From NCBI RefSeq assembly GCF_036384435.1, contig NZ_DASVMI010000030.1, positions 57,946 through 121,945 of the forward strand: a stretch of 64,000 nt of DNA. The letters are read 5' to 3'. Shown here piece by piece: positions 3,052-47,100 of the stretch (within the stretch, counting starts at the first letter, position 1; every line of letters begins with the position of its first letter). The notes below the pieces were generated by a model. It saw nothing but the letters and a program-made list of their open reading frames with translations. It was not told the DNA's origin and searched no databases. A program made the position numbers and the translations under genes. This DNA comes from Dyella sp. (GTDB lineage: Bacteria; Pseudomonadota; Gammaproteobacteria; Xanthomonadales; Rhodanobacteraceae).

Positions 3052-3127
<76 letters not shown>

Positions 3128-3358: not shown

Positions 3359-3860
3359 CTAGTCGCAAAGGAAGCGCACCCTGTCGCGGACGGTGTGCAC
3401 GGGCGCTTCGGCCTCAGCAACTATCGTTCTGATAAACGGTTTGCGAGGATATGAGCCATCCATCCTGGTGCGATCAAGCACCAACTGGTCGATCTGTGCC
3501 TGCTTCTGAGTACACCGTTGCTTCACGTCGTTTGCGCGCAGTTGGTGAAGCTGACGAACGAGGTTGTCTAAACATGCCGGCCGTGCGTGAGGGTGCATAT
3601 CAGCCTGCGTGGCCAAGGCCTCGTGTGTTGGATAAGGAGGCCCTCTTTGAAGGGCTTCTTCCAGCAACTGCCGGTATCTGCCCAGGCGCTCCTGACCGAT
3701 AGCTCGCCGTTTCTTCCTACGCCGAGCCGCTGGTGGAGGGATATCCATCAGTTCTTGAGAACCGGCGCACGTGGGATCTAGCAAGATGTCGAGAAGGGGC
3801 GACGTCCCCTAAGCAACCAACCAGCTTCGCTAGAGAAATTGCCCGCAGCCGGCAAACTGG
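3359..3860 (-). pseudogene. Probable C-terminal remnant of a TniQ/TnsD-family protein
   Basis: Minus-strand frames RAISLAKLVGCL / GTSPLLDILLDP...RYRQLLEEALQRGPPYPTHEALATQAD, with frameshift/stops and no N-terminus; resembles helical C-terminal regions of TniQ proteins. Confidence 0.35.
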
Positions 3861-4033: not shown

Positions 4034-4888
4034 CTATCCCCGAGCGGACACAAGCACACAGTCGATATTGAAGGTGCGTTTCAACCGGTTCGCCAAAATG
4101 AAATACTGGCGCCTAGGTGATTGCCCCTCATGGAATCTTTCTGCCAGATCACCGTCTTCCTCGATTTGCTCCAGCGCGGCAATGATCTTTGTGTTGATCG
4201 CTGCCAATGATATTGGCTCTGCTGATTGCGCGCGTGTCAGCTCTTCATATACAGATTCCACGAAGCTCTTGCCGTCCTCCGCCCGCTCCGGCTCGGAATG
4301 GAAGCAAACGTGCTTTTTTAGGCTGTAGGTGTAGTGGTGACTTACCGTTGTGGGGTCAGCGACTTGTCTATGGGGAACAATGCTGATCGAGTGGTCAAAT
4401 GAAAGATAGTCTCGCCAGTAATACCAACCGGCATCCCACAATCCAGCGGCGCTAGGACCCCAGAACGGCTCCCGAAATGAGTACTTGTAACGCTCAAGGT
4501 CGGATTTCGTGTGGAAGAGCGGGGCAACATATCGCGAGTAATTTCCGTTTGAGTGCAGAGCCGCAAGCAAGTTATGCTGCTTATACCTGGCGGACTTCTT
4601 GTCTGGGTGAAGTGGAAATGCGTAACAGCCGGGAGCGTCTGCAATTCTAAGTTTTCTTCGCGCAGCTTGCAGAGGTGATTTAGAAAACGTGGGGTAAAGG
4701 TCTGCAACCTTTAACTGCAGAAATAGCGGCACAAGAGCGAGTGCTTCCAGGTCATACCCAAGCGCGTTTTCTTGCTTCCCCGCGTACGTGTGAATTTCAA
4801 AGCGCTGGCCTGCGTTATAAAAGCTCCTGCGTAAATCGAACTCGATAAGTGTCTGGTATGCAGCTTCAATGAACTCTACACTTTGCAT
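4034..4888 (-). CDS. Cassette-borne hypothetical protein, putative PD-(D/E)xK restriction-endonuclease-like nuclease
   Basis: ENALGYD...PLFLQLK motif (E..GYD..F.Q.K); AT-richer than flanks; bounded by TTAGGGC at 4899-4893 and the attC. Confidence 0.6.
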   Translation of the reverse strand: MQSVEFIEAAYQTLIEFDLRRSFYNAGQRFEIHTYAGKQENALGYDLEALALVPLFLQLKVADLYPTFSKSPLQAARRKLRIADAPGCYAFPLHPDKKSARYKQHNLLAALHSNGNYSRYVAPLFHTKSDLERYKYSFREPFWGPSAAGLWDAGWYYWRDYLSFDHSISIVPHRQVADPTTVSHHYTYSLKKHVCFHSEPERAEDGKSFVESVYEELTRAQSAEPISLAAINTKIIAALEQIEEDGDLAERFHEGQSPRRQYFILANRLKRTFNIDCVLVSARG

Positions 4889-5106
4889 GGGCGCCCTAAT
4901 TAGGCCGAACTATTGAATATACGGACACGCCTGTCCGGCTATACATCCCCGATCGCGCAATGAAACGCCTACGCAACCCATTTTGCAGGAGCTTATCCTT
5001 GCCACGTCCGGCTAACAACCTAACGCAAAGCCGGACACGTGGAACGGCGGCTTTGGGTCGTACTCGGCCCTTCGAAGCATCCTCGGTCGTGGCGTAAGCT
5101 CCGCCG

Positions 5107-5931
5107 TCAAGCAGACACATCAAAAGTAGAATTTCTGGCGTGATTGGTGCGGAATTCGACGGGGCTGAGGCCGCCAAGTGCATCATGGGGTCGTACTTCG
5201 TTGTAGTCGATCATCCACCAGTGTGCCGCCTCGCGAACATCTTCGAGGCGGGCAAAGAGGTGCTGGTCCAGGACCTCCTCGCGGAAGGTGCGATTGAAGC
5301 GTTCGATAAAGGCATTCTGGTTGGGCTTGCCGGGCTGGATGTATTGAATTGCCACGCCATTGGCTTTTGCCCACTGGGTGAACGCTTCGCCCAGGAACTC
5401 CGGCCCGTTGTCTGAACGCACCACCTGCGGCAGTCCGTGGTCGCGCTTGATCTGATCGAAAACTCGCACCAAGCGGCTCGAGGTAATCGATGTATCCACT
5501 TCAATATGCAGCGCCTCCCGGTTGAAGTCGTCGACGACGTTGAACGTCCGGAAGCGACGGCCGCAAGCTAGAGCATCACTCATGAAATCAATGGACCACA
5601 CGGTATCCGGCAGCCTCGGCACATAAAGCGCGACACGCTCGCGTTTCGGAAGGCGGCGCCTCGCTGCGCGCCGGATGTTGAGCTTCATCGCTTTGTACAC
5701 ACGGTAAATCCGTTTTGGGTTCCAATCCTTTCGCTTCTTGCGCAACTGGTCGCTGCACTTCCAGAAGCCCCGGCTTGGCCGCTCTTCCACCAGCTTTGCC
5801 AGGGCGGCGATCAACTCCGCGTCGCGCATCGTCCAGTCCAGTGGCGGCGCGTACCAGGCCGCTCGCGACAGCCCCAGATATCCGCAGGACCGGCTCAATG
5901 GGCGGTTGTGCACTTCGGTCAGGAAGCGCAC
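5107..5931 (-). CDS. IS3-family transposase OrfB (DDE integrase core)
   Basis: WSIDFMSD, VVDDFNRE, RSDNGPEF, IQPGKPNQNAFIERFNRTFREE motifs. Confidence 0.95.
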   Translation of the reverse strand: MRFLTEVHNRPLSRSCGYLGLSRAAWYAPPLDWTMRDAELIAALAKLVEERPSRGFWKCSDQLRKKRKDWNPKRIYRVYKAMKLNIRRAARRRLPKRERVALYVPRLPDTVWSIDFMSDALACGRRFRTFNVVDDFNREALHIEVDTSITSSRLVRVFDQIKRDHGLPQVVRSDNGPEFLGEAFTQWAKANGVAIQYIQPGKPNQNAFIERFNRTFREEVLDQHLFARLEDVREAAHWWMIDYNEVRPHDALGGLSPVEFRTNHARNSTFDVSA

Positions 5932-5944
5932 CGCCTCTCGCTTA

Positions 5945-5968
5945 TGGGCCGGCCCTATAGTTTTTTTG
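5945..5968 (-). promoter_or_regulatory. Programmed -1 frameshift signal (A7 run followed by GGGCCGGCCC hairpin)
   Basis: Minus strand GCAAAAAAACTATAGGGCCGGCCC at the orfA/orfB junction. Confidence 0.8.
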
Positions 5969-6221
5969 CGATCAGGTCCTTCAGTGCCGCGTTATCCAGC
6001 GCCAACTCCGCGTACATACGCTTCAGCTTGGCGTTCTCCGCCTCCAGGTCCTTCACCCGGCGCAACTCGGACGCCTCCAGGCCGCCGTACTTGCTCTTCC
6101 ACTGGTAGTACGTGGCGGCACTGATGCCAGCCTGGCGACACAGATCCTTCACCGGCACCCCGGCGTCGGCCTGCTTGAGAATCGAGACGATCTGCGTCTC
6201 GGTGAACTTCGATGTGCGCAT
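5955..6221 (-). CDS. IS3-family transposase OrfA (HTH)
   Basis: MRTSKFTETQIVSILKQADAGVPVKDLCRQAGISAATYYQWKSKYGG...RVKDLEAENAKLKRMYA. Confidence 0.95.
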   Translation of the reverse strand: MRTSKFTETQIVSILKQADAGVPVKDLCRQAGISAATYYQWKSKYGGLEASELRRVKDLEAENAKLKRMYAELALDNAALKDLIAKKL

Positions 6222-6422
6222 GGAACCTCCTGACTTGGGAACAATGCCAGAAAGTTCTAGTTATGAGATGTCTGTCCGACGGGGGAGCTTACGCTTCCAT
6301 ATCGACCGATGCATAGGAGGTGCGAGATTCCAGTTATGGAATTAGCTATATATTCCGCCACTAGATTGAACGGCCACCGCTGAACAACAGACGCTTGTGG
6401 CATGCCGCCACTGCTGCACCAG

Positions 6423-7940
6423 TTACCGAGGCCCTTGCTTGCTCATCGACTGTGTCGGCGGCATCGGTAACTGCGGCGAAGTCGCGCCAGCGGCCGGCCA
6501 ACGCAAGTTGGACGTCTCGATCGTCGATGTCTTGCACTTCGCTAGGAAGCGTGGCATGCCTGCTTCAACGAGCCGAAAAAGAACCGCGGGCGTTTTTTCA
6601 ATCGGCCACTGGATCCAACTGCGGTCTTTACCGGTATGGCGGTCCGCCGGAAAGCCAAACTGGCGCGCCTCTTCCTTCGGAAGAAATACGCCGCAAACAA
6701 CGTTTGGCCCGGCCAAGTAAAGAAGTACGCTTACGCGGCGCAAGGCCGGCTCGTCCTTGTAACGCAACGCTCTCTCGCCAAGTCCGATACGAACTTGCGG
6801 TGTCGTGGTGTCTATTGCTACACAGCGCATCCCTAGAAAATCACTGACCATGCATCCACACTGCAGCAACCAATTGAACATTGGATTGCCATACTCCGCT
6901 CTGCCTGCACTGCCAAATCGATAGCGCAATACCCGATCAAGGCTGATAACAGCTCCAACGCTCGAAGAATAGTCTTTGTTCTGTTTCTTCGACCAGCTAA
7001 TGAAGTGACTATCCAGCACAGGCTTGATTAACATAGCGAATGCCTCGCGCTCCTTACCTTTTAAGGACATACCAAACAAGCCATCGGTCGCCTCCATGAC
7101 ATCCATCACCATGCCGCCCGGATAGGTCTTATGTCCACCGGCGAGGGGGCGACGTGCGCCGTGGCAGACCGTACCGCCGCGCTTTTTATATTGAATGTCA
7201 ATATATCTATCCGATAAGTCACGACTGAGGTAGCTTTGCCAATTGTGGTAATAGTCCAGCGAGATGGAGGCTTTCCGGTGAGCCTTCGCCCCCATGCTCC
7301 GACTCAGCTGACGTTGCTCCCGATCTGCCTGTTCGAGCTTGCGTTCCGCTCTAGTAGGAACCGAACGCCACAATATGAGCTTGATGCCGCGATCAAGGAA
7401 CGTCATCCAGTTGCTGTTATCAATCGCAAATCTGTTGCTGTTCGACGTTGCGGGCTTTGGACGACCGGCACGATGGGGTTTCCAGCGAAGATATGCCTCC
7501 CTGATCATATCGTCGTCGACGGTCTCTGCACTATCCCATTGAGTCTTGAACCAATCACGTGCCTGTTCAAGGTGTGCCTGATCCTCCACCCGATAGCCCG
7601 CCTCGATCCAATGGCCAACCTCGTCGCCCTCGAAGCCAAGGCCATTGGCAGAAAAGTTAGCGGATCCGATGATGCCGTAGCTGGCTCCCAACAGCACTTT
7701 CGCATGCAGGTTGCTCAGCTGTTTGACCTCCACGTTCGTGTGCTTCATTAGCTCCCCGATGACGCTGGGGTTGGTTCCTCCGCTCAGGAGATTACAAATG
7801 ATTCGGCGCTTGCCGACGGCCGCCCCAAGAAGGACATCGTTCGCACCCTTTCCCCAAAAGGCAATGGCCATATCCACAGTCTCATCGGAGACGGCCAGGT
7901 CTTTGATGGCTTTGCTGTAGCCCTTGCCGACTAGAAACAT
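6423..7940 (-). CDS. Phospholipase D-family (single HKD) nuclease with long uncharacterised C-terminus
   Basis: AIAFWG...LHAKVLLG...IIGSANFSANGL...EAG: HxK..GSxN..E motif as in Nuc/BfiI-type nucleases. Confidence 0.8.
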   Translation of the reverse strand: MFLVGKGYSKAIKDLAVSDETVDMAIAFWGKGANDVLLGAAVGKRRIICNLLSGGTNPSVIGELMKHTNVEVKQLSNLHAKVLLGASYGIIGSANFSANGLGFEGDEVGHWIEAGYRVEDQAHLEQARDWFKTQWDSAETVDDDMIREAYLRWKPHRAGRPKPATSNSNRFAIDNSNWMTFLDRGIKLILWRSVPTRAERKLEQADREQRQLSRSMGAKAHRKASISLDYYHNWQSYLSRDLSDRYIDIQYKKRGGTVCHGARRPLAGGHKTYPGGMVMDVMEATDGLFGMSLKGKEREAFAMLIKPVLDSHFISWSKKQNKDYSSSVGAVISLDRVLRYRFGSAGRAEYGNPMFNWLLQCGCMVSDFLGMRCVAIDTTTPQVRIGLGERALRYKDEPALRRVSVLLYLAGPNVVCGVFLPKEEARQFGFPADRHTGKDRSWIQWPIEKTPAVLFRLVEAGMPRFLAKCKTSTIETSNLRWPAAGATSPQLPMPPTQSMSKQGPR

Positions 7941-7983
7941 AGTTGTTCCATTCCGATGGAGATGTTGGCATCCAGTATCGACA

Positions 7984-8805
7984 TCAAATCAGCGCTGCGT
8001 CGACAATCCGTTCATTGTCGACCAACCAGCGCTCTTGAAAGGAGCGTCGTGCCGCCCAGCCGATCTCTCTGAGGTACCAACTGTTCACCGAGCCTCCTAC
8101 CACTGCTCCGATAGCAGGAATAGCTTGAAGTGCCTTTCGCTTCGTCAGGTTAACGCCAAGCTGCTTTGCCAGTGTTTTGATGGCGATCACCCCGGCCTCC
8201 TTGCTCAACCTGTCCGAGGCGGCTTTCTCGGCAATCTTCTTCCATGTGGTCTTGGCGATGGTTACCTGGATCATGCGCAAGGCGGTCAGCGCTGCCGTTT
8301 TCTCGGCCATTTCATTGGCGCTTGAAGCGGAAAGTACGCCCAGCATGAAATCCTTGTCATCCTTCGTTTTCGCTTCGTAGCCGTAGCAGGCACCGATCTT
8401 GTGGATCGTGCGCAAAGCCAGGACCAGTACTGCGGGAATATCTGCAGCAATACCAAAAATGCCAGCCGCGCCTGTGGCGGCGCCCTCCGCACCGGCAATA
8501 CCTATGGCCCAGTTGTGGACCTCATCAGCCAACTTGTCGGACCGCGCCAGATCAAGTGACTTAAGCTCTTCGAGGCTCGACACGCCCGCGTCGCGAAGGA
8601 TGTCCCCGGTATCCGTTAGCCAGTCTGCCGCGGAAGAGGACAGCTCCAGCAACCCTTGGATGGCCGATACCGGCACGATCTTGTTGATCAGCCAGGACAC
8701 TGGCGTCAATGCGATACCCACGGCCTGCGAGACGACAGAGGGCTCTTCCGCCTTCCAGGCTGTAATAGCGCTGAGTTGCTTCGTCTCATATTCCGTAAGA
8801 TTCAT
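7984..8805 (-). CDS. EcsC family protein
   Basis: AEGAATGAAGIFGIAADIPAVLVLALRTIHKIGACYGY...KALQAIPAIGAVVGGSVN motifs. Confidence 0.85.
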   Translation of the reverse strand: MNLTEYETKQLSAITAWKAEEPSVVSQAVGIALTPVSWLINKIVPVSAIQGLLELSSSAADWLTDTGDILRDAGVSSLEELKSLDLARSDKLADEVHNWAIGIAGAEGAATGAAGIFGIAADIPAVLVLALRTIHKIGACYGYEAKTKDDKDFMLGVLSASSANEMAEKTAALTALRMIQVTIAKTTWKKIAEKAASDRLSKEAGVIAIKTLAKQLGVNLTKRKALQAIPAIGAVVGGSVNSWYLREIGWAARRSFQERWLVDNERIVDAALI

Positions 8806-8989
8806 CTGAGTTCCTTTTGCATTGGAATGCCACGCTGCCTGCCAAGAGGCACGTATATTCGGAGGGTAGGTAATGAGGACGATATCGACCGTTATTTCTA
8901 CAACTTGAATGACGAGCCCAGGGGCATTCTACAGCGGTCTGCGGAGCGATGTGATTTTCTCGAAGAAGCCAGCCCTCACAGGCGTTCCC

Positions 8990-9350
8990 TTATTCTTCCC
9001 AGCTACACTGAAGAGCGGTGAGGGCCAGATATCGCTTCTTCTTTCTATCTTATGTTGGTCCGCCAAAAGAAACCTAGTAGATAAAATATAATCCAAGGCC
9101 AACAGCGGAGATCGGCCATCCGAGTATGACGGTTTTAACCCATATATCTTCCGCCAGGAAGTAAGCCAAGGCCTTCGGCCAATAAATATCGAACTAATTC
9201 TTGGCTTTCAGGATGCCAGGAACTGCGGTTAACGGTAGTGTCGCCACCAGCGTGATGAAGCCTTTTCGCGCGTAGTCATAGTACCCATATTGGGTACTTG
9301 CATAGTCCTGCGATGCCTTGACTAGCTTCGACGTCCCCCGATTTTGAGTA
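8990..9350 (-). pseudogene. Degenerate AT-rich fragment of a probable 2-TM membrane protein gene
   Basis: One frame reads KASQDYASTQYGYYDYARKGFITLVATLPLTAVPGILKAKN*FDIYWPKALAYFLAEDIWVKTVILGWPISAVGLGLYFIY*VSFGGPT*DRKKKRYL with in-frame stops. Confidence 0.35.
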
Positions 9351-9618
9351 GCGCGATCACCTGTACTTCGGCGCGACTCTCGACGATCAGCTTGCCCATT
9401 TCGGCGGTGATGATACGTGCCAGCTCTTCCGTGCGCGCGTCGATCAGGTCGGCGAGTTTACGCAACACCACCAAGCGCGGCTGGATCGGGCCCTTGGACC
9501 ACTGCGATTTGTAGAGCTTATGCGCGGCGGCCAGCGCCTCTTCGACCTGTTGATCCGAATAGCTGGGCCAGGTTTTGACCAGTTCGCCGGTGGTGGGATT
9601 GAAGATTTGATATGCCAT
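9351..9618 (-). pseudogene. Truncated NAD-dependent succinate-semialdehyde/aldehyde dehydrogenase (first ~90 aa only)
   Basis: MAYQIFNPTTGELVKTWP...LARIITAEMGKLIVESRAEVQVIA, then unrelated sequence and a stop at 9322. Confidence 0.85.
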
Positions 9619-9803
9619 GAAATTCTCCAGATATGCCCGTGAGGGTGCCCGGAGCGCGCCGCACCCGCGACGCACTCATTGGCTTGCAAGGAGCTCCTTG
9701 CGGAGCGCTACGTGCTGGTAAGGCGATTTGGTAGCGGCGGTGTTTGAGCACGCATTGCCTCGTCCGTGGCGAACAATTTAGGCGCCACCCACCGCGACCT
9801 TAA

Positions 9804-26971: not shown

Positions 26972-28696
26972 TCACGCACCCAGGGTCTCGGCAATCGCGG
27001 CCAACCACAGTGCCACGGCGACCGCACCGGGATCGGCATGACCACGGGTGCGATCGCCCAGGTACGAAGAGCGGCCCAGGCGGGGGGACATCTGACTGGT
27101 GGCTTGTGCGCCCGCTTGTGCTGCATCAGCGGCCGCATGGGCCACCGATGCGACAGCCATCGCCCGGCCGGCCGCTTCGGCGATCGCATCCGCGGCGGGG
27201 ATGAGCGCGTCGAGCATGGTGCGATCACCAGCGCGCCCGCCACCGAGATCCTGCACGCCTTCCACCCCCGCACGAAAAGCATCCCGCCAGGCATCGATGT
27301 CGCTGGCACTGGACGATGCCGAAAGCGTCACTGCCGCGCGCAACATGAATACAGCATACAGAGGCCCTGACGTTCCACCGATCACGCGGCGAAGAATGCC
27401 CGACAACGCAGCCAGCACAGACGCAGGATGGGATGCATCCAGCGCAGGGAGCGCATCGAGCATCGCGTTGACACCACGACTCAGGCTCAGGCCGATATCG
27501 CCATCGCCAACGATCGAATCGAGCTCCGTCAACTCACTTTCCGCCTCACGTAGCGCCGCTGCGACGCCATGCAGGCAGGCCACGAAGCGATCTGCGTCGG
27601 CAGGTTGCGCCCACGTCGGTCCAACAAGCGCGGAATCACCCGCATGCAGGTCATCCGTCGCAGGCGCTTTGACCGGCGGCGTTGAAGCCGGATGCGTCGC
27701 GGTAGTCCAGGCAGCCGCTGCCGTTGGCGCAAGAAGCCGCTCAAGCCTGGACGGATCGAGTCGCAGCAAGGACACCGAGCAACCGGGCATTTCAAGCGCA
27801 CTGAGAAAGGTACCCGCCCATGAAGCTTCTGCAGCGATGCCGGCCTGGTGCAGGCGAGCAAGCACATGGCGATTGACAATCGCCAACTCCTGCACCGCGC
27901 TACCTCCCAGGTTATTGATCAATACCGCGACCTTATCACCTGCACGCAACTGGCTGGATGCAAGCAGGCGATCCATCATCGTATCGACCATGGCATCGGC
28001 GACTTCGACATGCCCGCGTTGCGTTCCCTTCTCGCCATGAATACCCAGGCCATATTCGACTTCGTCGGCGCCCAGCTCGAATCCGGCTTTTCCTGCGGCC
28101 GGAACGATGCACGGTCCCAGGCCGAGCCCCATACTGAATACGTTATGGCTGGCCGCACTCGCTTCGTTGACTACCTCGGCAAGCGACAAGCCCGCAGCTG
28201 CCGCGGCACCGGCCACCTTGTGCACGAAGACGGTGCCGGCGATTCCGCGCCGCCCGACGGCTCCTGTTGCTTCGAGTGCTACGTCATCACCGACCACGAC
28301 CATCTCAACACGCAGCCCCGAAGCGCGGGCAATTTCAGCAGCAAGCCCGAAGTTGAGGCGATCTCCCGTGTAATTCTTCACGATCATCAAGGTCCCGGCA
28401 GGTCCGGTAACCGTACGCAAGGCCGCCAGTACAGCATCCACACTGGGTGAAGTGAAAACTTCGCCGATGACGGCTGCCGTCAACATGCCTTCACCGACAT
28501 AGCCGGCGTGCGCAGGCTCATGTCCTGCGCCTCCTCCCGAGATAATCGCGACCTTTCCGGCTGACGCATGCGCCGCATGGTCACTGCGTACGATGACGTT
28601 GTGTCCTTCCACGCGGGAAAGGCGGCCATCGGCGGCCACCAGGCCTTCAACCATGTCCTGCACGACATGCAGCGGGTCATTGATGAGTTTTTTCAC
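26972..28696 (-). CDS. dhaK: Dihydroxyacetone kinase, fused DhaK-DhaL (ATP-dependent type)
   Basis: SGGGAGHEPAHAG, KNYTGDRLNF, GIHGEKG, GDGDIG, GDRTMLDAL, GRSSY, DPGA; GTG start at 28696. Confidence 0.92.
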   Translation of the reverse strand: MKKLINDPLHVVQDMVEGLVAADGRLSRVEGHNVIVRSDHAAHASAGKVAIISGGGAGHEPAHAGYVGEGMLTAAVIGEVFTSPSVDAVLAALRTVTGPAGTLMIVKNYTGDRLNFGLAAEIARASGLRVEMVVVGDDVALEATGAVGRRGIAGTVFVHKVAGAAAAAGLSLAEVVNEASAASHNVFSMGLGLGPCIVPAAGKAGFELGADEVEYGLGIHGEKGTQRGHVEVADAMVDTMMDRLLASSQLRAGDKVAVLINNLGGSAVQELAIVNRHVLARLHQAGIAAEASWAGTFLSALEMPGCSVSLLRLDPSRLERLLAPTAAAAWTTATHPASTPPVKAPATDDLHAGDSALVGPTWAQPADADRFVACLHGVAAALREAESELTELDSIVGDGDIGLSLSRGVNAMLDALPALDASHPASVLAALSGILRRVIGGTSGPLYAVFMLRAAVTLSASSSASDIDAWRDAFRAGVEGVQDLGGGRAGDRTMLDALIPAADAIAEAAGRAMAVASVAHAAADAAQAGAQATSQMSPRLGRSSYLGDRTRGHADPGAVAVALWLAAIAETLGA

Positions 28697-28838
28697 GTGT
28701 GGCTCCTTGGGGACGGGGCAGACGCTTCGCGCATGCGACCCAGGGAGAGCCGCATCATGCGCATCGGCCAAAGCATGCGCCGTTCAAAGGGAGAATGTAC
28801 AGGCTTGGAAAACCTTCGCGACAGGCTCTTGGGTCTCT

Positions 28839-38105: not shown

Positions 38106-41100
38106 ATGTCGTCTCAAGACTTGCGCTCCTCGCTGCTGCAAAGCTCGGATGTTCTGCCCTTGTCCAGCCCGCAGCTGGATATTTTTCATGATCACCTCAT
38201 GAAAGGCAGTACTCCCGCCTACAATATCGGCGGCTATCTGGATTTTCACGGTTCAATGGATATTCAACGCTTCGAAAAAGCGCTGAATCTGGCCATAAGA
38301 AAACACGATTCGCTACGTATCATGCTAATGGCCGGCGACGACGACCTGCCAGGCCAGCGAATCATGGCCGATATGCCAGCCGATCTGATGTTGCTGGATT
38401 TTTCCCAGGATGCGTCGCCGGACGACTCGGCGCGCACATGGATGCGCAACAGCATGAACCAGCCGTTCGTCCTGGTGGGTGCCCCGCTTTTTCGCCATGC
38501 ACTGATCAAGCTTGCCGATGCGCACTATCAATGGTTCATCTGCGTGCATCACCTGATCGCCGATGGCTGGGCGATGGATACGTTGTTCCAGTCCTTCGCG
38601 GGCCTGTACAGCGCGCTCGAACAGGGTGAAGAGCCGCAGCTGGCCGCTCCCTCCTATGCCCGATTCGTCGAATCGGATCGCCTTTACCAGGCATCGGCCA
38701 GCTTTACCAAGGACCGCGACTACTGGCATGAAAAGTATCGGGATCTTCCCGATCCACTGCTCTTGGCACGACACGCCGTGCACGACCAGACGCCCATCAG
38801 CGGTGAACATGTCTGGCGCCTCGATGACGCATTGAACGCACGCATCGACGACCTGGCCACCACCCATCAGTCCACGCGGTTTCAGGTAGTTCTGGCGATC
38901 TTCCATGCCTTTTTCCAGCGCCTGCACCAGCGCGAGGAGCTGGTCATCGGCTTATCCGTGCTCAACCGCAAGGATGCCGACGCCCGCAGGACTGTCGGCA
39001 TGTTCACCAATGTGTCGGCCATGCGGCTGGCCTTTGACCTGCGCGGTTCGTTCGTCGATCTGCTCAAGGCCATCGCGCCTTCGCTGCGCCAGGATTATCG
39101 CCACCAGCGCTTTCCGATCGGGCAATTGAACAAGGGGCTGGGCTTGTTTGCTCGCCAGCGCGACCAACTCTACGAACTTTCCATCTCGTATGAAAACGGC
39201 GGCGTACCGCTCCGGTTCGGCGACGTCACGGCGTTTGTATTCAAGTGCACGAACGATTACGAAAGCACACCATTGCGCCTGTGCGTGCGCGATGACCTGC
39301 ATCGCCGAGAGACATCGCTGTTCTTCATCTTTGGCCACGCCTATTACAGCCAGGCCGAGATCGCCGTGCTGCAAGATCGTTTCATGCGCTTCACGCAGGC
39401 GCTTCTCGCCGATCCGCAGAGTTCGCTTGACAGCTTGCCGATCGTCACCCCGCAGGAGCGCGCCCAGTTCGACGCCTGGAATGCAACGGCTATCGACTAT
39501 CCCCAGGACGCATGCGTGCATGCATGCTTCGAGCAGCAGGCCGCACGGCGACCCGATGCCATCGCACTGGTGCACGAGGATACGAGCCTGACCTATGCCG
39601 AGGTCGATGCGCGCGCAAATCAGTTGGCACAGCACCTGATCGCGCTGGGTGTGGGCCCGGACGATCGGGTAGCGCTGTGCGCCGCGCGACAACCGGCAAC
39701 CATCGTTGCCATGCTCGCGATCCTGAAGGCCGGCGGCGCATACGTGCCGATTGACCCGTCCTATCCGGCTGAGCGCGTCGCTTATGTGCTGGGCGATGCA
39801 CAGCCACGACTGCTGTTGGCCGACCGGGCCGGTCGCCAGGCACTGGGAGCGCCGCCGGCCCAACTGCCAGTGCTCGACCTGGATGGCGCCGCCCTCGCCT
39901 GGGCGAGTTTGTCGCGCGAGCGTCCGCAGGTAGAAGGCCTGGATTCACGGCGGCTGGCCTACGTGATCTACACCTCCGGTTCTACGGGCCAGCCCAAAGG
40001 CGTGATGGTCGAGCATCGCCAGGTATGCCATCAGGTCACCGCACTGCGGCATGCCTACCAGTTCACCGCCGACGACCGCCTGTTGCAGTTCGCGTCCATT
40101 GCGTTCGACATGTCCGTGGAGGAAATCTTTCCCGCGCTGCTTACCGGCGCGACGCTGGTATTGCGCACGGATGCCTGCCTGGAATCGCCGGCCGCCTTCG
40201 CCGCGTTCTGTGCCGTCCACCAGCTCACGTACCTCAACCTGCCCAGCACGTTCTGGGCTCAACTGGCGTTGGCCCAACCGGAGCTGGAACTACCCGTCTG
40301 CCTGCGCCAGGTCAGTGCCGGCGGCGACGCCATGAGCCTGGCCGCCGCTTCGGCGTGGCTGCGTCGCCAGAGCCATCGTCCTGCCCTGTTCAATGCATAT
40401 GGCCCCACCGAAACCACGGTCAACGCCACCATGCTTGCGGTGGATCGGCCCATGGAAGTGTCATGCATCGGACGCCCGATCGCCAACACGCGGGCCTACC
40501 TGCTCGATGCATATCGTCAACCTGTGCCGGTCGGCGCCGTCGGCGAGCTTTACATCGGCGGCGCGGGTGTTGCCCGTGGTTATCTTGATCGCCCCCAGCT
40601 CACCATGGAGCGTTTTCTGAGCGATCCATTCTCGCCGGTTGCCGATGCACGTATGTATCGCACCGGCGACCTTGCTCGTTTTCTACCCGATGGCAACATC
40701 GAATTCCTCGGACGCAATGACCATCAGGTCAAGATTCGCGGCTACCGCATCGAACTGGGCGAGATCGAGACGCGATTGGCCAACCATCGGCAAGTCCACG
40801 AAGCGGTGGTGCTTGCACGCGGCGAGTCGCATGATCGTCGCCTGGTCGCTTATGTGGTGGGCGACGGGGACGCCAACGACCTGCGCGCGCATCTTGCCGT
40901 CGAATTGCCGCCCTACATGATCCCTTCGGCGTTTGTCCGCCTGGATGCCTTTCCGTTGACGCCCAACGGCAAACTCGATCGCAAGGCGTTGCCCGAGCCT
41001 GACGAGGCAGCGTTCGCGCATCGCGCCTATGAGGCACCGCGCGATGGCATCGAGGCGTCGCTGGCCCAGTTGTGGTGCCAGTTGCTGGACCTGGCACGCG

Positions 41101-44100
41101 TTGGTCGACACGATCATTTCTTCGAGCTGGGCGGACATTCGCTGATCGCGATTCGCCTGCTCGGCAAGGTCTCCCAACAGTTCGGTGTCTCGCTACCGCT
41201 GGCAAGCCTGTTCAATCATCCCACGCTGGCAGCCCTGGCCGAGGCGATCGCCTCCGATCATGACGGCGCAGGGACGGCGACGCTGCCTCCCATCGTCGCG
41301 GTGTCGCACGGCGATCACATCCCGCTTTCCTATGCACAGCAACGGCTGTGGTTCATGGCCCAGCTCGATCAAGCCAACGCCACCTATCATGTCTCCCTGG
41401 TGCTGCAGTTGGAGGGCGCGCTGGACATCCCGGCATTGCAACAAGCACTCGACCGCCTGCTCCACCGCCATGAAGCCTTGCGCACCGTTTTCCATGCGAT
41501 CGACGGCGAGCCGCGCGCGTCGCTGCTTCCAGCACATACGCCGTTTCCGCTGGTGGTGCATGACCTGCGCCAATCCCCTCATGCCGATGAGCTGCTGGCC
41601 CGATATAAGCACGACCATGCGCACGCGGCTTATGACATGGAGCATGGCCCGCTGGTGCGCGCCAACGTGATTCGCCTGGGTGACCGCCGGCATGTACTTC
41701 AGCTGGGCATGCACCATATCGTCTCCGATGGCTGGTCGATCAACCTGCTGGCACGCGAGATCAACGCGCTCTACGTCGCGTTTGCACAGGGACAGGCTGA
41801 CCCGCTGCCCGCGTTACGTGTGCAGTACCCCGACTACGCCGCTTGGCAACATACCGTGCTGTCGAGCGAACGACTGCGTGACCAGGCCGCGTATTGGAAG
41901 GACGCCTTGCATGGTGCGCCCGACCTGCTGCACCTGCCCACCGATCATCCGCGACCGTCGCGCCAGTCGTTTGCCGGTGCGATGCGCCCCATACGCTTGG
42001 ACGTTGCACTGACGCGTCGGCTGCGCCAGCTGGGCAAGCAGCATGGCATGAGCCTGTATATGCTGGTAACTGCCGCATGGGCCGCGGTGCTGGCCAGGCT
42101 GTCGGGCCAGGACGATGTCATGATCGGTACCTTGTCGGCCAATCGCGGCCAGCGCGAAATCGAGCCCTTGATCGGCTTTTTCGTCAGTACCTTGCCTTTG
42201 CGCATCGACCTGTCGGGCGAACCCGATGCCCTGACGTTGTTGTCGCGCGTGCGGCGCACGACGCTGGCGGCACAGGAAAACCAGGATCTTCCGTTCGAGC
42301 AGATCGTGGACATCGCCAAGCCCTCGCGTCGGCTGGATCATTCGCCGCTGTTCCAGGTGTTGTTTGCCTGGCAGAGCAACGACAAGACCGGCTTTGAACT
42401 GCCAGGTCTGACGATCAGCCAGTCGCCTATGTCGCTGGAGTCGATTCGCTACGATCTCGAGCTGCACCTGTACGAAACCGAAGACGCTATCGTCGGCGGC
42501 CTTGGCTATGCCACGGCGCTCTTTGACGAAACGACCATCGACCGCCATATCGGTTACCTGAGCACGACCCTGGAGGCCATGGTGGCCGATCCGGCTACGG
42601 CCTTGCGCGTGCCGTTGCCCGATAGCCACGAGCTGGCCCAGCTCGCGCGCTGGAACGATACCGCTGTCGATCCTGTCTCGGTCGATGCTATCCATCGCCT
42701 GTTCGAGCAGCACGCAGCCAGCTCGCCGCAGGCCACGGCATTGATATGCGACGACCAGGCACTCTCCTATGGCGCGTTGAACGCCAGGGCCAATCAATGG
42801 GCTCGTCACCTGCGATCGCTGGGGGTCGGCACGGGAGTGCGCAGCGACCCGCGCATCGCCCTGTGCGCGGAGCGCGGCTTCGACATGATCTGCGCACTTT
42901 TGGCCATTCTCAAGGCCGGTGCCTGCTACGTACCGCTGGACCCGTCCTATCCCAGCGAACGGCTGCGTCAGGTGCTGTCCGAGGCCGGTGCCGAGCTGGT
43001 ACTGCACGATACCGCAGGGCATGAAGCGCTCGGGGTATCCTCACTGGCCCGATATCGCTGCGTGGATATCGGCGAGCTTGCCATGCATGGCACCGACCTG
43101 GCCGAAGAGAACCTTCCATCGCCCGAGGGCACCGACGCCAGCAGCCTTGCCTATGTCATCTACACGTCCGGCTCTACCGGCACGCCCAAGGGTGTGGCGA
43201 TGCCGCACCGGCCGCTGGTCAACCTCGTGCAATGGCAGCTGGCCGAAGCCGTAAAGGCCGGTTTGCCGGCTCCGAAAACACTGCAATTTGCTGCACTTGG
43301 ATTCGACGTCGCGTTCCAGGAGATCTTTACCACCCTGTGCGCGGGTGCATCCCTGGTACTGGTCGATACACGCACGCGCATGCAGTTCGGCAAGCTGATC
43401 GCGCTGCTGCGCCACCAACGCGTGCAACGGGTATTCCTGCCCTATATCGCGCTACAGGCCCTGGCCGAGGCGGCCGAAGATATCCGCGATGACGGCACGG
43501 CGCTGCTGCCCGAGTTGCGCGCGATCATCGTAGCAGGGGAGCAACTGCGCCTCACGCCGCAGATCCAGCGCCTGTTCACCCGTCTGCCGGCCTGCGACCT
43601 GCACAACCACTATGGCCCGACCGAGACCCACGTGGTCACCGCACAGGTCCTGCCGGCCGGCAGCATCGCCACATCACTGCCCCATGTGCCGATTGGTCGT
43701 CCCATCGCCAATGCACGCACCTATGTGCTCGATGGGCATGGACAGCCCGTGCCGGTGGGAGTCGCCGGCGAACTGTACATCGGCGGCTTGAGCATCGCGC
43801 GCGGCTATCTGGGGCGCGATGACCTGACTGCCGCACGCTTTCTTGCCGATCCGTTCGATACGCGTACCGGAGCGCGCATGTATCGCACCGGCGACCTGGC
43901 GCGGCACCTGCCAGATGGCCGCCTGATATTTCTTGGTCGCAACGATCACCAGGTCAAGCTGCGCGGGTTCCGTATCGAGCTGGGTGAAATCGAGGCACGC
44001 CTGGCCGAACATGCCAGCGTGCGCGAGTGCGCGGTGATCGCACGCAACGACGCGCAAGGCGAGATTCAACTGGTGGCCTACGTCGTCGCGGGCTCGCATG

Positions 44101-47100
44101 CCGATGACAATCCTGCGACATGGCACGCCTACCTGGCCGCCACGCTGCCGGCATACATGGTGCCTGCCGCATTCGTCACGCTGGAGGCTATTCCTTTGAC
44201 GGCCCATGGCAAGCTCGATCGTCAGGCACTGCCCGCACCCGACGAACAGGCCCTGGTCCGCGCCCATTACGAAGCACCGCGTGGCGATGTGGAAACCAGG
44301 CTTGCCGCACTCTGGCAGGATCTCCTGGGCGTCGCCCAAGTCGGTCGCCGCGATCAGTTCTTCGAACTCGGCGGCCACTCTCTGATCGCGGTACGCCTGC
44401 TCAGCCGCATCGCCCAGGCATTCGGTGCCAGCCTGCCACTGGCCGACCTGTTTGCGTGGCCGGTATTGCATGATCTGGCCGCACGCATTGCCCAACAGCA
44501 GCGCTCGACTCCCCACCAGCAGACCGGCATCCCACGCGCCACGCGCGGGGAGATGCTACCCCTGTCGCATGCACAGCAACGCCTGTGGTTTCTCGCCCAG
44601 CTCGATGGCGACAGCGCGACTTACCACATCCCGATTGCCGTGCAACTGGACGGCCCGCTGGATGTGCCCGCGCTGCGCGAAGCGTTGCAACAAGTGTTCG
44701 CACGCCATGAAAGTCTGCGCACGGTATTCGTCGCGCGACACGGCCAGCCGCATGCCCGGCTGTTGGACAGCAATGCCGAGGTTGCACTTCACCAGCATGA
44801 TCTTCGTCACTACGGTGCAAGCGAACGTGTAGACGCAGCCACCATACTGCTCGCCCGAGAGCGCAACCGGCCCTTCGATCTGGCGGCAGGGCCGCTGCTT
44901 CGCGCCAGTCTGCTGCGCACCGAAGAACAACAGCATGTATTGCAACTGACCTTGCACCACATCGTGGCCGACGGCTGGTCGCTGGGCATTCTCTCCCGAG
45001 AGCTCGGCGCCTGCTATGCCCAGGCACAGGGTTCGCGTTCCGACATGCTGGCCCCACTGCCGATCCAGTACGCCGACTATGCGGCATGGGAGCATGGCTG
45101 GCTGGTCAGCGAACGCATGCTTGAACAGGTCACTTTCTGGCAAGACCAACTCGCCGGATCGCCATCCTTGCTTGAGCTTCCCACGGATCGACCACGCCCG
45201 GCACGGCAGTCGTTCGAGGGTGCCTTTGTTCCGATCGAGCTGGATGCCAACTTGACGCAGGATCTCAAGCGGCTCGCGCAGCACCACGGCGCGACGCTTT
45301 TCATGATCGTGCTGGCCGCGTGGGCGCTGGTGCTTTCGCGACTATCCGGGCAGCGCGACATCGTGATCGGCACGCCGACGGCCGGTCGGGGACGACCGGA
45401 ACTTGAATCGCTGATCGGCTTTTTCGTCAACACGCTGCCGCTGCGCATCGACCTGCATGAGGCCACCGATGTCGCATCACTGCTACGCCACGTTCGCACG
45501 ATCGCACTGGATGCCCAGGCACATCAGGAGCTTCCCTTCGAGCGCATCGTGGAGCTGGCCAAGGTGCCTCGTCGCATCGACCACACACCGCTGGTCCAGG
45601 TGCTGCTGGCGTGGCAGAGCCATGACGAAGGTTCCTGGAACCTGCCGGGAATGACCGCCACACCGGCGCATGGCGACTTTGACTGGGTGAAGTTCGACCA
45701 GGAGTTGATTCTGAGCGACGCCGACGGCCACATCCGGGGCGGCATCAACTATGCCACGGCGCTGTTCGATCGATCGACCATCGAACGCCACGCCGGCTAT
45801 CTGCGCAACGTGCTCAAAGCCATGGCTGCTGGCGATACGCGCCCGCTGCATCGCATCCCGATGCTCGCCGACGACGAACGCGAGCAGTTGATAGAAATGT
45901 GGAACCGCACCGATATGGCGGTCGAATCGTTGTGCCTGCATCAACAGGTGGAGCGTCACGCCCACGAATCGCCGCATTCGCTGGCGCTGGTCAGCCAACA
46001 GGAACAGGTGACCTATGCCGACCTGAACGCACGGGCCAACCACCTCGCGCATCACCTGGCACGCATGGCTGTGCGACCGGGCGATCGCGTAGCATTGTGT
46101 GTGGAGAAGGGGGTCTCCATGTTCGTCGGCCTGCTGGCGATCATGAAAGCCGGTGGCGTGTACGTGCCGCTGGATCCGGCGTACGCCTCTGCACGCCTGG
46201 ACCATATCCTCCTCGATGCAACACCGCGTCTGCTGCTTTGCGACGAGATCGGTCGCGAGGCCCTGGGAGCCGGTGCGAGAGGCCGGTTGCCGGCGCTCGA
46301 TATGGATCAGGCATCGGCATGGGAGCATGAGCCAGGCGACAATCCGGCCGTGCCAGGCCTCGATGCCCGGGCCTTGGCGTATGTGATCTACACGTCCGGC
46401 TCCACCGGCGCGCCCAAGGGTGTGATGGTCGAGCACCATGGCATCATCAATCTGGGCCACTCGCTTGGTGAGCGCCTGGGTATCGACGCAGATAGCCGCA
46501 TCAGCCAGTTTGCCTCCGCCGGCTTCGACGCCAGCATCTTCGAGTGCTCGATGGCGTTCACCGCGGGTGCGGCGCTGTACCTGCCGTCGGTCGCCGAACG
46601 GCAGAGCCCATCCGCGTTCATGGCCTTCATCGGACGCCAGCGCATCACCCATGCCACGCTGCCACCGGCGTTCCTGCAGGGCCATGCCGAAGCCCCGTGC
46701 TGGGCGCACCGCCCAATGTTGATCTTTGCGGGCGATGCATCCAGCCCTGGCCTGTTTCGTCACTGGAGCCGCTACGCAAGACTTGCCAATGCCTATGGCC
46801 CCACCGAGATCACCGTCTGTGCCAGCACCTGGGTCTGCCCCGATGAGCCAGGCGAACTGTCCGTGGTGCCGGTAGGGCGTCCCATCGGGAATACTCGCCT
46901 GTACTTGCTCGACGAACACGGCCTGCCCGTGCCTCGCGGCAGCATCGGCGAGCTGTATATCGGGGGTGCGAACGTCGCGCGCGGCTACCTGGACCGCCCT
47001 GCGCTGAATGCGGAGCGCTTCGTCTCCGACCCATTCGATGATAAGCCACAGGCACGCATGTATCGTAGCGGCGACCTGATGCGCTACCTTCCCGATGGCA

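What the first reader, a model, noticed from the sequence alone, without database searches (positions are those of the whole stretch)
6423..8805. EcsC plus single-HKD PLD nuclease: candidate two-gene defence module
Seen: co-oriented ORFs 43 bp apart inside the AT-richer tRNA island, next to an IS and a nuclease cassette. The 505-aa protein has an N-terminal HxK..GSxN..E nuclease domain and about 340 aa with no motif I recognise; there is no methyltransferase or helicase nearby. Established: single-HKD PLDs dimerise to form nucleases in several restriction and defence systems; EcsC proteins are helical, hydrophobic and functionally obscure. Inference: a sensor/effector pair, or a stand-alone PLD defence gene; I know of no named system with this pairing.
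Basis: partly seen in the sequence, partly recalled or inferred. Interest (0 to 1): 0.65.

Follow-up and report, generated by a model that had tools for sequence, protein, structure and literature searches.

The report
Two unrelated genes, not one module
The two neighbouring genes are real, but they are independent cassettes joined by recombination in a variable tRNA-linked island: the larger one belongs to an uncharacterised family of stand-alone DNA-cutting enzymes that sits among anti-phage genes, and the EcsC gene travels on its own.

Summary
Both ORFs exist as described: EcsC (273 aa, 7984-8805, minus strand) and a 505-aa single-HKD PLD protein (6423-7940, minus strand), 43 bp apart, in a lower-GC island beside tRNA-Met and an IS3 element.

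The proposed two-gene module is not supported. No EcsC was found in 29 PLD-family loci, and no PLD in 21 EcsC loci. A related genome carries the same EcsC block (94% nt, 98% aa) at the same tRNA-Met hotspot without the PLD gene. That homology stops 25 bp before the PLD start codon.

The PLD N-terminus (about residues 1-165) folds like the nucleases SauUSI, NucT, Zucchini and Nuc. Residues 171-505 model confidently but match no solved fold. This part diverges much faster than the catalytic domain.

PLD relatives lie next to GmrSD, Mrr, Lamassu, Dsr1-like SIR2, Eleos-like GTPases, HsdR and WYL regulators.

Best reading: a stand-alone restriction-like nuclease with a conserved PLD N-terminal domain and a variable C-terminal recognition region. 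The nearest tested analogue is the END nucleases, but it lacks their defining domain. EcsC is a separately mobile membrane-associated gene of unknown role. Interest is moderate, and lies in the PLD family rather than the pairing.

The parts
6423..7940 (-). 505-aa single-HKD PLD-family protein, intact, stop codon included
   Evidence: ORF. Homologues of 37-47% identity over 92-98% of its length. The C-terminus aligns with P0002 and P0003. AF2 pLDDT is 88.9.
7446..7940 (-). N-terminal Nuc-like PLD nuclease domain, residues 1-165. Conserved residues: H79, K81, G92-S-A-N95, E104, E113.
   Evidence: Invariant columns. Foldseek PDB hits: SauUSI 7clg E=1.6e-7, NucT 6ehi, Zucchini 4gel, Nuc 1byr, PLD3/PLD4. 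Weak DpdK and DrmC HMM hits over residues 66-113.
6897..7427 (-). Family-specific middle domain, residues about 172-348, alpha/beta, with no known fold match. Candidate recognition domain.
   Evidence: Present in both the short (310-350 aa) and long forms. Only 17% identical to short forms, against 41% for the N-terminal domain. No significant PDB fold or sequence match.
6531..6893 (-). Extra C-terminal alpha/beta domain, residues about 350-470, found only in the rare long form
   Evidence: Covered in 11 of 11 long forms but 3 of 116 short forms. Only weak YjbR/YdhG-like Foldseek hits, probability 0.57 or lower.
7941..7983 (-). 43-bp spacer holding the recombination junction at 7966-7970. No terminator and no promoter-like site on the coding strand; weak RBS.
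   Evidence: Sequence. Homology to L028 and L029 ends at 7966 or 7970. Promoter and terminator scan.
7984..8805 (-). EcsC-family protein, 273 aa, with a hydrophobic Gly/Ala-rich core at about residues 108-135
   Evidence: PF12787 E=7e-47. PADLOC PDC-S29 E=3.9e-18 and PDC-S30 E=1e-10. dN/dS 0.08 and hydropathy.
7966..9332 (-). 1.37-kb horizontally shared EcsC block: EcsC, its upstream region and the 3' remnant of a membrane-protein gene
   Evidence: 94.3-94.4% nt identity to L028 and L029, against 70-80% for the surrounding backbone. The contig lay-down agrees.
8993..9328 (-). Pseudogene remnant: the last 113 codons of a 276-aa membrane protein that is intact upstream of EcsC in L028. It carries three in-frame stops and a 1-residue gap.
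   Evidence: tblastn. Intact gene listed.
8926..8955 (-). Only sigma-70-like promoter match on the coding strand. It lies upstream of EcsC inside the shared block and is the likely source of read-through into the PLD gene.
   Evidence: This is a consensus match only, with 3 sites found against 1.9 expected.
5092..6294 (-). IS3-family insertion sequence (orfA 5955-6221, orfB 5107-5931) with 43-nt terminal inverted repeats
   Evidence: Pfam HTH_Tnp_1 and rve.
3052..3127 (+). tRNA-Met (CAT), the anchor of the variable island
   Evidence: The same tRNA and backbone synteny occur in L028.

Best explanation
The two genes are independent cassettes that recombination has placed side by side in a variable island next to tRNA-Met.

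The 505-aa protein is a rare long form of a large uncharacterised family. The family has a conserved N-terminal single-HKD, Nuc-like PLD nuclease domain and a fast-diverging C-terminal region.

I propose it is a stand-alone, restriction-like DNA endonuclease. Two N-terminal domains would dimerise to form one metal-independent HxK active site. The middle and C-terminal domains would select the substrate, possibly modified or otherwise foreign DNA. This is the same logic as BfiI, SauUSI and the END nucleases.

EcsC is a separately mobile, membrane-associated protein. It is under purifying selection, and its role (defence or not) is unresolved.

At this locus the PLD gene has lost its own upstream region. 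It is probably transcribed by read-through from the EcsC promoter, an operon by accident.

Shown: gene identities, the nuclease-type fold of the N-terminus, the lack of conserved pairing, the position of the junction, and the defence-rich neighbourhoods of PLD relatives.

Inferred: dimerisation, DNA cleavage, the recognition role of the C-terminal region, the anti-phage function and co-transcription.
For: No conserved pairing.
- An EcsC HMM finds nothing (E<=1) in 29 PLD-family loci (226 kb). A PLD HMM finds nothing in 21 EcsC loci (232 kb). Both find the window genes, at 4e-145 and 4.5e-130 (tblastn).
- No neighbour is conserved among 10 EcsC loci from at least six phyla.

Junction.
- L028 and L029 carry a 98%-identical EcsC.
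- DNA identity is 94% over window 7966-9332 only, and ends 25 bp before the PLD ATG.
- The backbone of that genome (tRNA-Met, SnoaL_5, DUF2170, Band_7) is only 70-80% identical.
- So the EcsC block moved horizontally and independently of the PLD.

Nuclease fold.
- Every Foldseek hit to residues 1-165 with E<=1e-5, apart from the DNA-binding protein TrmBL2, is a PLD nuclease: SauUSI, NucT and Zucchini. Nuc (5e-5) and PLD3/PLD4 follow.
- H79, K81, S93, N95 and E113 are conserved in at least 90% of 128 relatives.

Modular architecture.
- The N-terminal domain is 41% identical to short-form relatives, but the middle domain only 17%. The last domain is present in 3 of 116 short forms.
- There are 2727 cluster representatives at E<=1e-3 and 726 at E<=1e-30. 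Most of the 150 best are about 310-350 aa.

Defence context of relatives.
- GmrSD type IV enzymes: L011, L017.
- LmuB directly upstream: L008. A probable Lamassu operon alongside: L044.
- Dsr1-like SIR2 plus DEAD helicase: L031.
- Eleos-like LeoA/LeoBC plus a WYL regulator: L002, L004. The L018 locus, with a truncated PLD, has homologous neighbours.
- Mrr: L009. Vsr, Dcm, a GHKL-type ATPase (HATPase_c_3) and Mrr: the P0003 contig. HsdR: at least one locus.
- Sources.

Precedent. PMC12191111 shows that a single-gene protein with a PLD N-terminal domain and a sensor C-terminal domain (END) is a working anti-phage defence. It describes a wider group of PLD N-terminal domains with variable C-terminal domains.

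Expression. There is no terminator or promoter-like site between the genes.
Against: - No experiment or transcript data exist for this locus; only DNA metagenomes hold it.
- Pfam PLDc_2 is below its gathering score (18.1 against 27).
- The canonical D of the HKD motif is replaced (A86).
- The C-terminal 335 residues have no significant structural match, so a recognition role is by analogy only.
- Hints of PUA-like folds (ASCH, YTH, SRA) are individually insignificant.
- The neighbourhood sample is modest: about 25 independent PLD contexts and about 12 independent EcsC contexts. No defence-enrichment statistic against a background was computed.
- Some relatives sit on megaplasmids among hypothetical genes.
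- The tight 43-bp co-oriented spacing, stable in three samples, is compatible with functional coupling at this one locus.
Confidence: 0.62

Rival explanations
1. One reading: EcsC and the PLD protein form a dedicated two-gene defence system. EcsC would be a membrane sensor or partner, and the PLD nuclease the effector.
For: The genes are co-oriented, 43 bp apart, with no terminator between them. The arrangement is identical in three metagenome samples. EcsC is distantly related to the PADLOC single-gene candidates PDC-S29 and PDC-S30. EcsC-like genes have been noted in putative operons with the JukA sensor (bioRxiv 10.1101/2022.09.17.508391).
Against: There is no co-occurrence in 29 PLD loci or 21 EcsC loci. 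The closest PLD homologue (47% identity) follows an LmuB gene, not EcsC. A 98%-identical EcsC occurs without the PLD at the same hotspot, and the homology breaks inside the spacer. EcsC stays under purifying selection without the PLD (dN/dS 0.08). In Stenotrophomonas it lies in a conserved non-defence context.
Confidence: 0.07
2. The PLD protein is a promiscuous effector cassette. It plugs in downstream of varied upstream partners (LmuB/Lamassu, a 70-aa zinc-ribbon protein, EcsC) and depends on whichever partner precedes it.
For: In several loci a co-oriented gene ends shortly before the PLD start. Examples are LmuB 41 bp upstream in L008 and a conserved 70-aa CxxC zinc-ribbon ORF in L002, L004 and L010. 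Others are unknown genes in L009, pQBR103 and Thioclava p6, and EcsC here. A Lamassu system neighbours the family twice (L008, L044).
Against: The upstream partners share no detectable similarity. In L044 the Lamassu genes are divergent, not co-oriented. Several loci have no co-oriented upstream gene (L012, L013). The protein carries about 340 residues of its own non-catalytic domains, as stand-alone enzymes do. There are no PADLOC LmuA hits.
Confidence: 0.13
3. The PLD protein is not an immune gene. It could be a housekeeping or mobile-element nuclease (DNA uptake, plasmid or island maintenance, repair), or a phosphodiesterase acting on lipids or other substrates.
For: NucT (competence) and Nuc (plasmid-borne) are among the best structural matches. 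Relatives occur on Pseudomonas megaplasmids among hypothetical genes. The gene lies next to an IS element in a decaying island with gene remnants. No PADLOC family matches beyond weak DpdK and DrmC hits.
Against: There is no signal peptide or transmembrane-like segment of the kind a secreted NucT/Nuc-type enzyme would have. The maximum hydropathy window is a predicted buried strand. Known defence genes recur as neighbours across unrelated taxa. Lipid-type PLDs rank far below the nucleases in the fold search. There are no phage homologues.
Confidence: 0.15

Closest known systems
END nucleases (END-PaCF1 and homologues; PMC12191111)
   Same: A single gene in a defence island. The N-terminal PLD nuclease domain has SauUSI as its best structural match, followed by a non-catalytic C-terminal region. 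The catalytic and sensing parts are modular.
   Different: END is defined by an inactivated endonuclease III/Ogg-like, all-helical C-terminal domain. Here the C-terminal region is two alpha/beta domains with no HhH-GPD or OGG Pfam hit and no EndoIII fold match. No phenotype is known.
SauUSI (PDB 7clg), an ATP-dependent type IV restriction endonuclease
   Same: It is the best structural (E=1.6e-7) and sequence-profile (E=0.014) match to the N-terminal PLD domain.
   Different: SauUSI has helicase and target-recognition domains and is 953 aa long. The window protein has no helicase or ATPase domain, and none is nearby.
BfiI, Nuc and NucT: single-HKD PLD nucleases that dimerise to form one active site
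   Same: One HxK...GSxN...E motif per chain and a Nuc-like fold. Like BfiI, it combines an N-terminal PLD domain with a C-terminal DNA-recognition region.
   Different: There is no B3-like pseudobarrel match and no adjacent methyltransferase. Nuc and NucT are about 150-180 aa, secreted or periplasmic and non-specific.
DpdK (Dpd 7-deazaguanine system) and DrmC (DISARM), PLD proteins of multigene defence systems
   Same: These are the only PADLOC and NCBIfam hits, and they cover the HKD core at residues 66-113.
   Different: Scores are far below the cut-off (21.9 bits against 100). Those proteins are 150-220 aa. No dpd or DISARM genes are nearby.
EcsC family (PF12787; B. subtilis ecsABC) and the PADLOC candidates PDC-S29 and PDC-S30
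   Same: Full-length Pfam match. Partial HMM matches to the single-gene defence candidates.
   Different: No ecsA/ecsB ABC-transporter genes are adjacent. The PDC matches cover only residues 87-260, and those candidates are untested as far as I could find.

Membership tests
EcsC family (Pfam PF12787) | Match to the family HMM above the gathering score over most of the model | tested here: met
   160.5 bits against a cut-off of 30.4; residues 9-261 cover model positions 2-240 of 240.
EcsC as part of the ecsABC ABC-transporter operon | Adjacent ecsA (ABC ATPase) and ecsB (permease) | tested here: not met
   No ABC transporter genes are annotated within about 10 kb on either side. None occur in 21 other EcsC loci by listed Pfam hits or neighbour comparison.
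PLD superfamily, single-HKD nuclease branch (Nuc, NucT, BfiI, SauUSI N-terminal domain) | HxK...GSxN...E catalytic motif, one copy per chain | tested here: met
   H79, K81, G92, S93, N95, E104 and E113 are invariant in 13 full-length homologues. H79, K81, S93, N95 and E113 are conserved in at least 90% of 128 relatives. The D of HKD is replaced by A86.
PLD superfamily, single-HKD nuclease branch | Pfam PLDc_2 above the gathering score | tested here: not met
   18.1 bits against a cut-off of 27. Several homologues do carry a precomputed PF13091 hit.
PLD superfamily, single-HKD nuclease branch | Nuc-like fold of the catalytic domain | tested here: met
   The AF2 model has pLDDT 88.9. Foldseek probability is 1.00 to SauUSI, NucT, Zucchini and Nuc, with TM-score (target-normalised) 0.67-0.69 for NucT and Nuc.
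PLD superfamily, single-HKD nuclease branch | Homodimer forming one active site; metal-independent DNA cleavage | not testable with these tools
   No multimer prediction or biochemistry was available.
END nucleases | Inactivated endonuclease III / Ogg-like (HhH-GPD) sensor domain | tested here: not met
   No such Pfam hit. Residues 171-505 are predicted to be mixed alpha/beta with 11 strands. There is no EndoIII or Ogg structure among the listed Foldseek hits (top 50).
Proposed EcsC-PLD two-gene system | Conserved adjacency of the two families across lineages | tested here: not met
   0 of 29 PLD loci and 0 of 21 EcsC loci, with positive controls. A 98%-identical EcsC occurs without the PLD.
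Lamassu (PLD as an LmuA-type effector) | LmuB SMC-like ATPase (with or without LmuC) in the same operon; an LmuA HMM match | tested here: not met
   There is no LmuA hit for the PLD and no LmuB-like sequence in the window. LmuB does neighbour relatives in L008 and L044.
DpdK / DrmC | Family HMM above the cut-off, with the dpd or DISARM gene set nearby | tested here: not met
   NCBIfam DpdK scores 21.9 bits against a cut-off of 100. No partner genes are present.
Juk-type system (JukA sensor plus an EcsC-like partner) | Adjacent jukA/YaaW gene (DUF3944 / Cbp3-like) | tested here: not met
   No such Pfam family appears among the called genes within about 10 kb on either side. The gene upstream of EcsC is the remnant of an unrelated membrane protein.
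PADLOC PDC-S29 / PDC-S30 candidates | HMM match with PADLOC's own coverage and score thresholds | tested here: inconclusive
   E=3.9e-18 and E=1e-10, but only over residues 87-260. PADLOC's thresholds were not available.

The most novel reading that the evidence does not exclude
The 505-aa protein and its relatives (726 cluster representatives at E<=1e-30) would form a new, widespread family of single-gene immune nucleases. A conserved PLD cutter would be steered by a previously undescribed, rapidly diversifying recognition fold. The rare long form would add a further sensor domain. The family would recognise a class of foreign or modified DNA not covered by known type IV enzymes.
Probability: 0.4. 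Interest if true: 0.55.

Novelty: new variant of a known kind. Interest (0 to 1): 0.38.

Why it matters
The pairing that made this finding attractive is a local accident, so no new two-gene system should be claimed from it.

What remains is useful but incremental. It is a large, unnamed family of proteins with a PLD N-terminal domain and a variable C-terminal region. These proteins sit among restriction, Lamassu, SIR2 and WYL-regulated genes. Their non-catalytic domains match no solved structure.

If the family is shown to restrict phage or plasmids, it would add a new recognition module to the toolbox of restriction nucleases, possibly modification-dependent ones. It would also add a missing family to defence-annotation databases.

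The locus is also a clean example of how tRNA-linked hotspots assemble apparent operons from unrelated cassettes. That is a caution for guilt-by-association predictions made from a single genome.

Tried and rejected
- IS truncation of the PLD gene: rejected. The IS ends 128 bp beyond the stop codon, and the C-terminal tail aligns with P0002 and P0003.
- Upstream genes in other PLD loci as divergent EcsC relatives: rejected by BLASTP and Pfam and by the EcsC HMM.
- Searching for other architectures that carry the C-terminal region: only the protein itself and P0002 came back.
- Transcript evidence for co-transcription: only DNA metagenome runs hold the locus.
- Taxonomic placement using the Dak kinase: the best GTDB matches are about 50-60% identical and scattered across phyla, so this was uninformative.
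- Phage-encoded relatives of the PLD: none. No PHROG hits for either gene.
- The metagenome scan added 12 more PLD loci, none with EcsC.
Full report
**Observation**

6423-7940(-) encodes 505 aa and 7984-8805(-) encodes 273 aa, with a 43-bp spacer.

The 273-aa protein is a full-length EcsC family member (PF12787, E=7e-47). The 505-aa protein has one HxK...GSxN...E motif. H79, K81, G92, S93, N95, E104 and E113 are invariant in 13 full-length homologues.

Pfam PLDc_2 is below threshold at 18.1 bits against 27. So I checked the assignment by structure. An AF2 model built on 128 relatives has pLDDT 88.9. Its first 165 or so residues match PLD-family nucleases at Foldseek probability 1.00. These are SauUSI (E=1.6e-7), NucT, Zucchini, Nuc and PLD3/PLD4. 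Lipid PLDs rank well behind them.

The surroundings are also as described:
- GC is 0.52-0.56 across about 3.5-9.5 kb, against 0.59-0.63 in the flanks.
- tRNA-Met lies at 3052-3127.
- An IS3 element has 43-nt inverted repeats at 5092-5134 and 6252-6294.
- No methyltransferase or helicase lies within about 10 kb.

The IS ends 128 bp beyond the PLD stop codon. The C-terminal tail aligns with homologues, so the gene is intact. The neighbouring 'nuclease cassette' (the 284-aa ORF at 4034-4888) could not be confirmed. It has no hit in four HMM libraries.

**Is it a two-gene module?**

No evidence supports that, and several lines argue against it.

*Homologues do not co-occur.* The PLD protein has few close relatives: 48 hits, with full-length ones at 37-47% identity. 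I fetched their contexts, genome and metagenome loci, and plasmid records.

An EcsC profile HMM finds nothing at E<=1 in these 29 loci (226 kb). It does find the window gene at 4e-145. Conversely, a PLD-family HMM finds nothing in 21 EcsC loci (232 kb). Allowing for near-duplicate loci, this is about 25 independent PLD contexts and about 12 independent EcsC contexts.

The closest PLD homologue (P0002, 47% identity) follows, 41 bp downstream, the 3' end of a Lamassu LmuB gene (E=3e-63), not EcsC. Ten EcsC loci from Planctomycetota, Bacillota, Bacteroidota, Beta- and Deltaproteobacteria and others share no neighbour at all.

*The junction is visible.* Contigs L028 and L029 come from a related organism. 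Their backbone of tRNA-Met, SnoaL_5, DUF2170 and Band_7 is in the same order but only 70-80% identical in DNA. They carry an EcsC that is 98% identical in protein.

The shared DNA block is 94% identical and spans only window 7966-9332. An independent contig lay-down puts its ends at 7970 and 9322. The block stops 18 bp after the EcsC stop codon and 25 bp before the PLD start codon.

In L028 no PLD-like gene follows EcsC; downstream come a 69-aa ORF and a short-chain dehydrogenase gene. It is preceded by an intact 276-aa membrane protein. Only the last 113 codons of that protein survive in the window, at 8993-9328, with three in-frame stops.

A block far more similar than its backbone means recent horizontal transfer of EcsC, independent of the PLD.

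*EcsC is maintained without the PLD.* dN/dS between the two copies is 0.08. In Stenotrophomonas, a 78%-identical EcsC sits in a conserved chromosomal context. Its neighbours are a Dyp peroxidase, an NMN transporter and a TonB receptor, with no defence genes.

*Expression at this locus.* The spacer has no terminator or promoter-like site. The only promoter-like match on that strand lies upstream of EcsC, inside the shared block. The PLD ribosome-binding site is weaker than in its homologues. I infer that the PLD gene is expressed here by read-through, an operon created by the junction rather than inherited.

**What the PLD protein is**

An exhaustive profile search found 2727 cluster representatives at E<=1e-3 and 726 at E<=1e-30. 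Most of the 150 best are about 310-350 aa and cover the N-terminal domain plus a middle domain. The 470-520 aa long form with an extra C-terminal domain is rare.

Conservation is strongly asymmetric. Against short-form relatives, the N-terminal domain is 41% identical and the middle domain only 17%. The last domain is present in 3 of 116.

Residues 171-505 were modelled alone and fold confidently (pLDDT 88.7) into two alpha/beta domains. They have no significant match to any solved structure (best Foldseek E=0.044) or PDB sequence.

Weak hits do recur. Some are to PUA-like readers: ASCH, DUF3850, YTH and SRA. Others are to YjbR/YdhG-like proteins. I record these only as leads.

**Genomic company of the family**

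Known defence genes flank relatives in unrelated taxa:
- GmrSD type IV enzymes in Luteibacter (L011) and Pseudomonas (L017).
- LmuB in L008, with genes upstream of it in L044 that look like the rest of a Lamassu operon.
- A Dsr1-like SIR2 protein and an overlapping DEAD helicase gene on a 16-kb Thioclava plasmid (L031).
- Eleos-like LeoA/LeoBC dynamin GTPases with a divergent WYL-WCX regulator in Rhodanobacteraceae (L002, L004). The L018 locus, with a truncated PLD, has homologous neighbours.
- Mrr (L009).
- Vsr, Dcm, a GHKL-type ATPase (HATPase_c_3) and Mrr on the P0003 contig.
- Type I HsdR matches to two neighbours. I could not assign them to a locus; the largest neighbour, in L045, is a candidate.

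No background statistic was computed. The pattern is suggestive rather than proven.

**Mechanism proposed**

By analogy with Nuc and BfiI (established knowledge of single-HKD PLD nucleases), two N-terminal domains would pair to form one metal-independent active site. The fast-evolving middle and C-terminal domains would choose the DNA substrate.

The closest experimentally supported analogue is the END nucleases. These are single-gene defences with a SauUSI-like PLD N-terminal domain and a C-terminal sensor. That paper explicitly describes a wider group of PLD N-terminal domains fused to variable C-terminal domains, including EVE/PUA, helicase and pseudobarrel types (PMC12191111).

The window protein works like that group but is not an END nuclease. 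The defining inactivated EndoIII domain is absent. It is also not DpdK or DrmC (21.9 bits against a cut-off of 100, and no partner genes). It is not an LmuA either.

**EcsC**

It has a hydrophobic Gly/Ala-rich core at about residues 108-135. Some sources annotate its relatives as DUF697-like. It matches the PADLOC single-gene candidates PDC-S29 and PDC-S30 only partially. I found no functional test of those candidates.

A preprint notes EcsC-like genes in putative operons with JukA sensors, but no jukA is present here. Its contexts range from mobile or defence-like (DUF4145, a PIN toxin-antitoxin pair, a phage replication gene) to plainly chromosomal. Identities of 50-65% across phyla point to frequent transfer. 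Its function stays open.

**Rivals**

- A true EcsC-PLD pair: about 0.07.
- The PLD as a plug-in effector for varied upstream partners: about 0.13. Several loci do have a co-oriented gene ending just upstream, including a conserved 70-aa zinc-ribbon ORF in Rhodanobacteraceae.
- A non-immune nuclease or phosphodiesterase: about 0.15.

**Verdict**

Novelty lies in the uncharacterised C-terminal domains and the size of the family, which make this a new variant of a known kind. Interest is moderate.

Noticed in passing
window 38106-48854 (+): A 3582-aa trimodular non-ribosomal peptide synthetase. It has three condensation, three adenylation and three carrier domains, and ends in a reductase (NAD_binding_4) domain.
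   Followed up: partly
L002 7723-7932, L004 7710-7922, L010 1219-1431: A conserved ORF of about 70 aa with two CxxC pairs (zinc-ribbon-like) sits directly upstream of the PLD gene. It lies between the PLD gene and a divergent WYL-WCX regulator in Rhodanobacteraceae relatives. The copies are 61-77% identical to each other. It may be a small partner or regulator.
   Followed up: partly
L008 2-712 and L044 3-1481: PLD-family genes lie next to Lamassu LmuB genes in two unrelated loci. In L008 the PLD gene is co-oriented and 41 bp downstream. In L044 the arrangement is divergent, and two further genes upstream of LmuB may complete a Lamassu operon. This could be chance within defence islands or a real association.
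   Followed up: partly
L031 (Thioclava plasmid p6) 2581-6804: On a 16-kb plasmid, a short-form PLD gene overlaps the start of a DEAD/ResIII helicase gene by 11 bp. A convergent Dsr1-like SIR2 gene faces them. Together these look like a split SauUSI-like arrangement.
   Followed up: partly
L028 442-5874: The sister island holding the 98%-identical EcsC also carries other genes. These are a ThiF-family gene with three small co-oriented ORFs, an HTH-Xre/Peptidase_M78 pair and an SDH-type (S49-like) protease. They may form a separate defence or mobile-element module.
   Followed up: no
window 8993-9328 (-) and 9322-9675 (-): Two gene remnants flank the EcsC block. One is the 3' end of a 276-aa membrane-protein gene, with three in-frame stops. 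The other is an aldehyde-dehydrogenase fragment of about 100 aa. Both point to repeated recombination at this hotspot.
   Followed up: yes
window 4034-4888 (-) and 3359-3784 (-): Two island ORFs (284 aa and 141 aa) have no hit in Pfam, NCBIfam, PADLOC or PHROGs.
   Followed up: partly
L024 4959-5804 (Sutcliffiella sp.): The EcsC homologue is split into three ORFs, so it appears to be a pseudogene in that genome.
   Followed up: no
window 26972-28771 (-): The dihydroxyacetone kinase has no relative above about 60% identity among 185,579 species representatives. The source organism, from soil and root metagenomes, appears to lack a close sequenced relative.
   Followed up: partly
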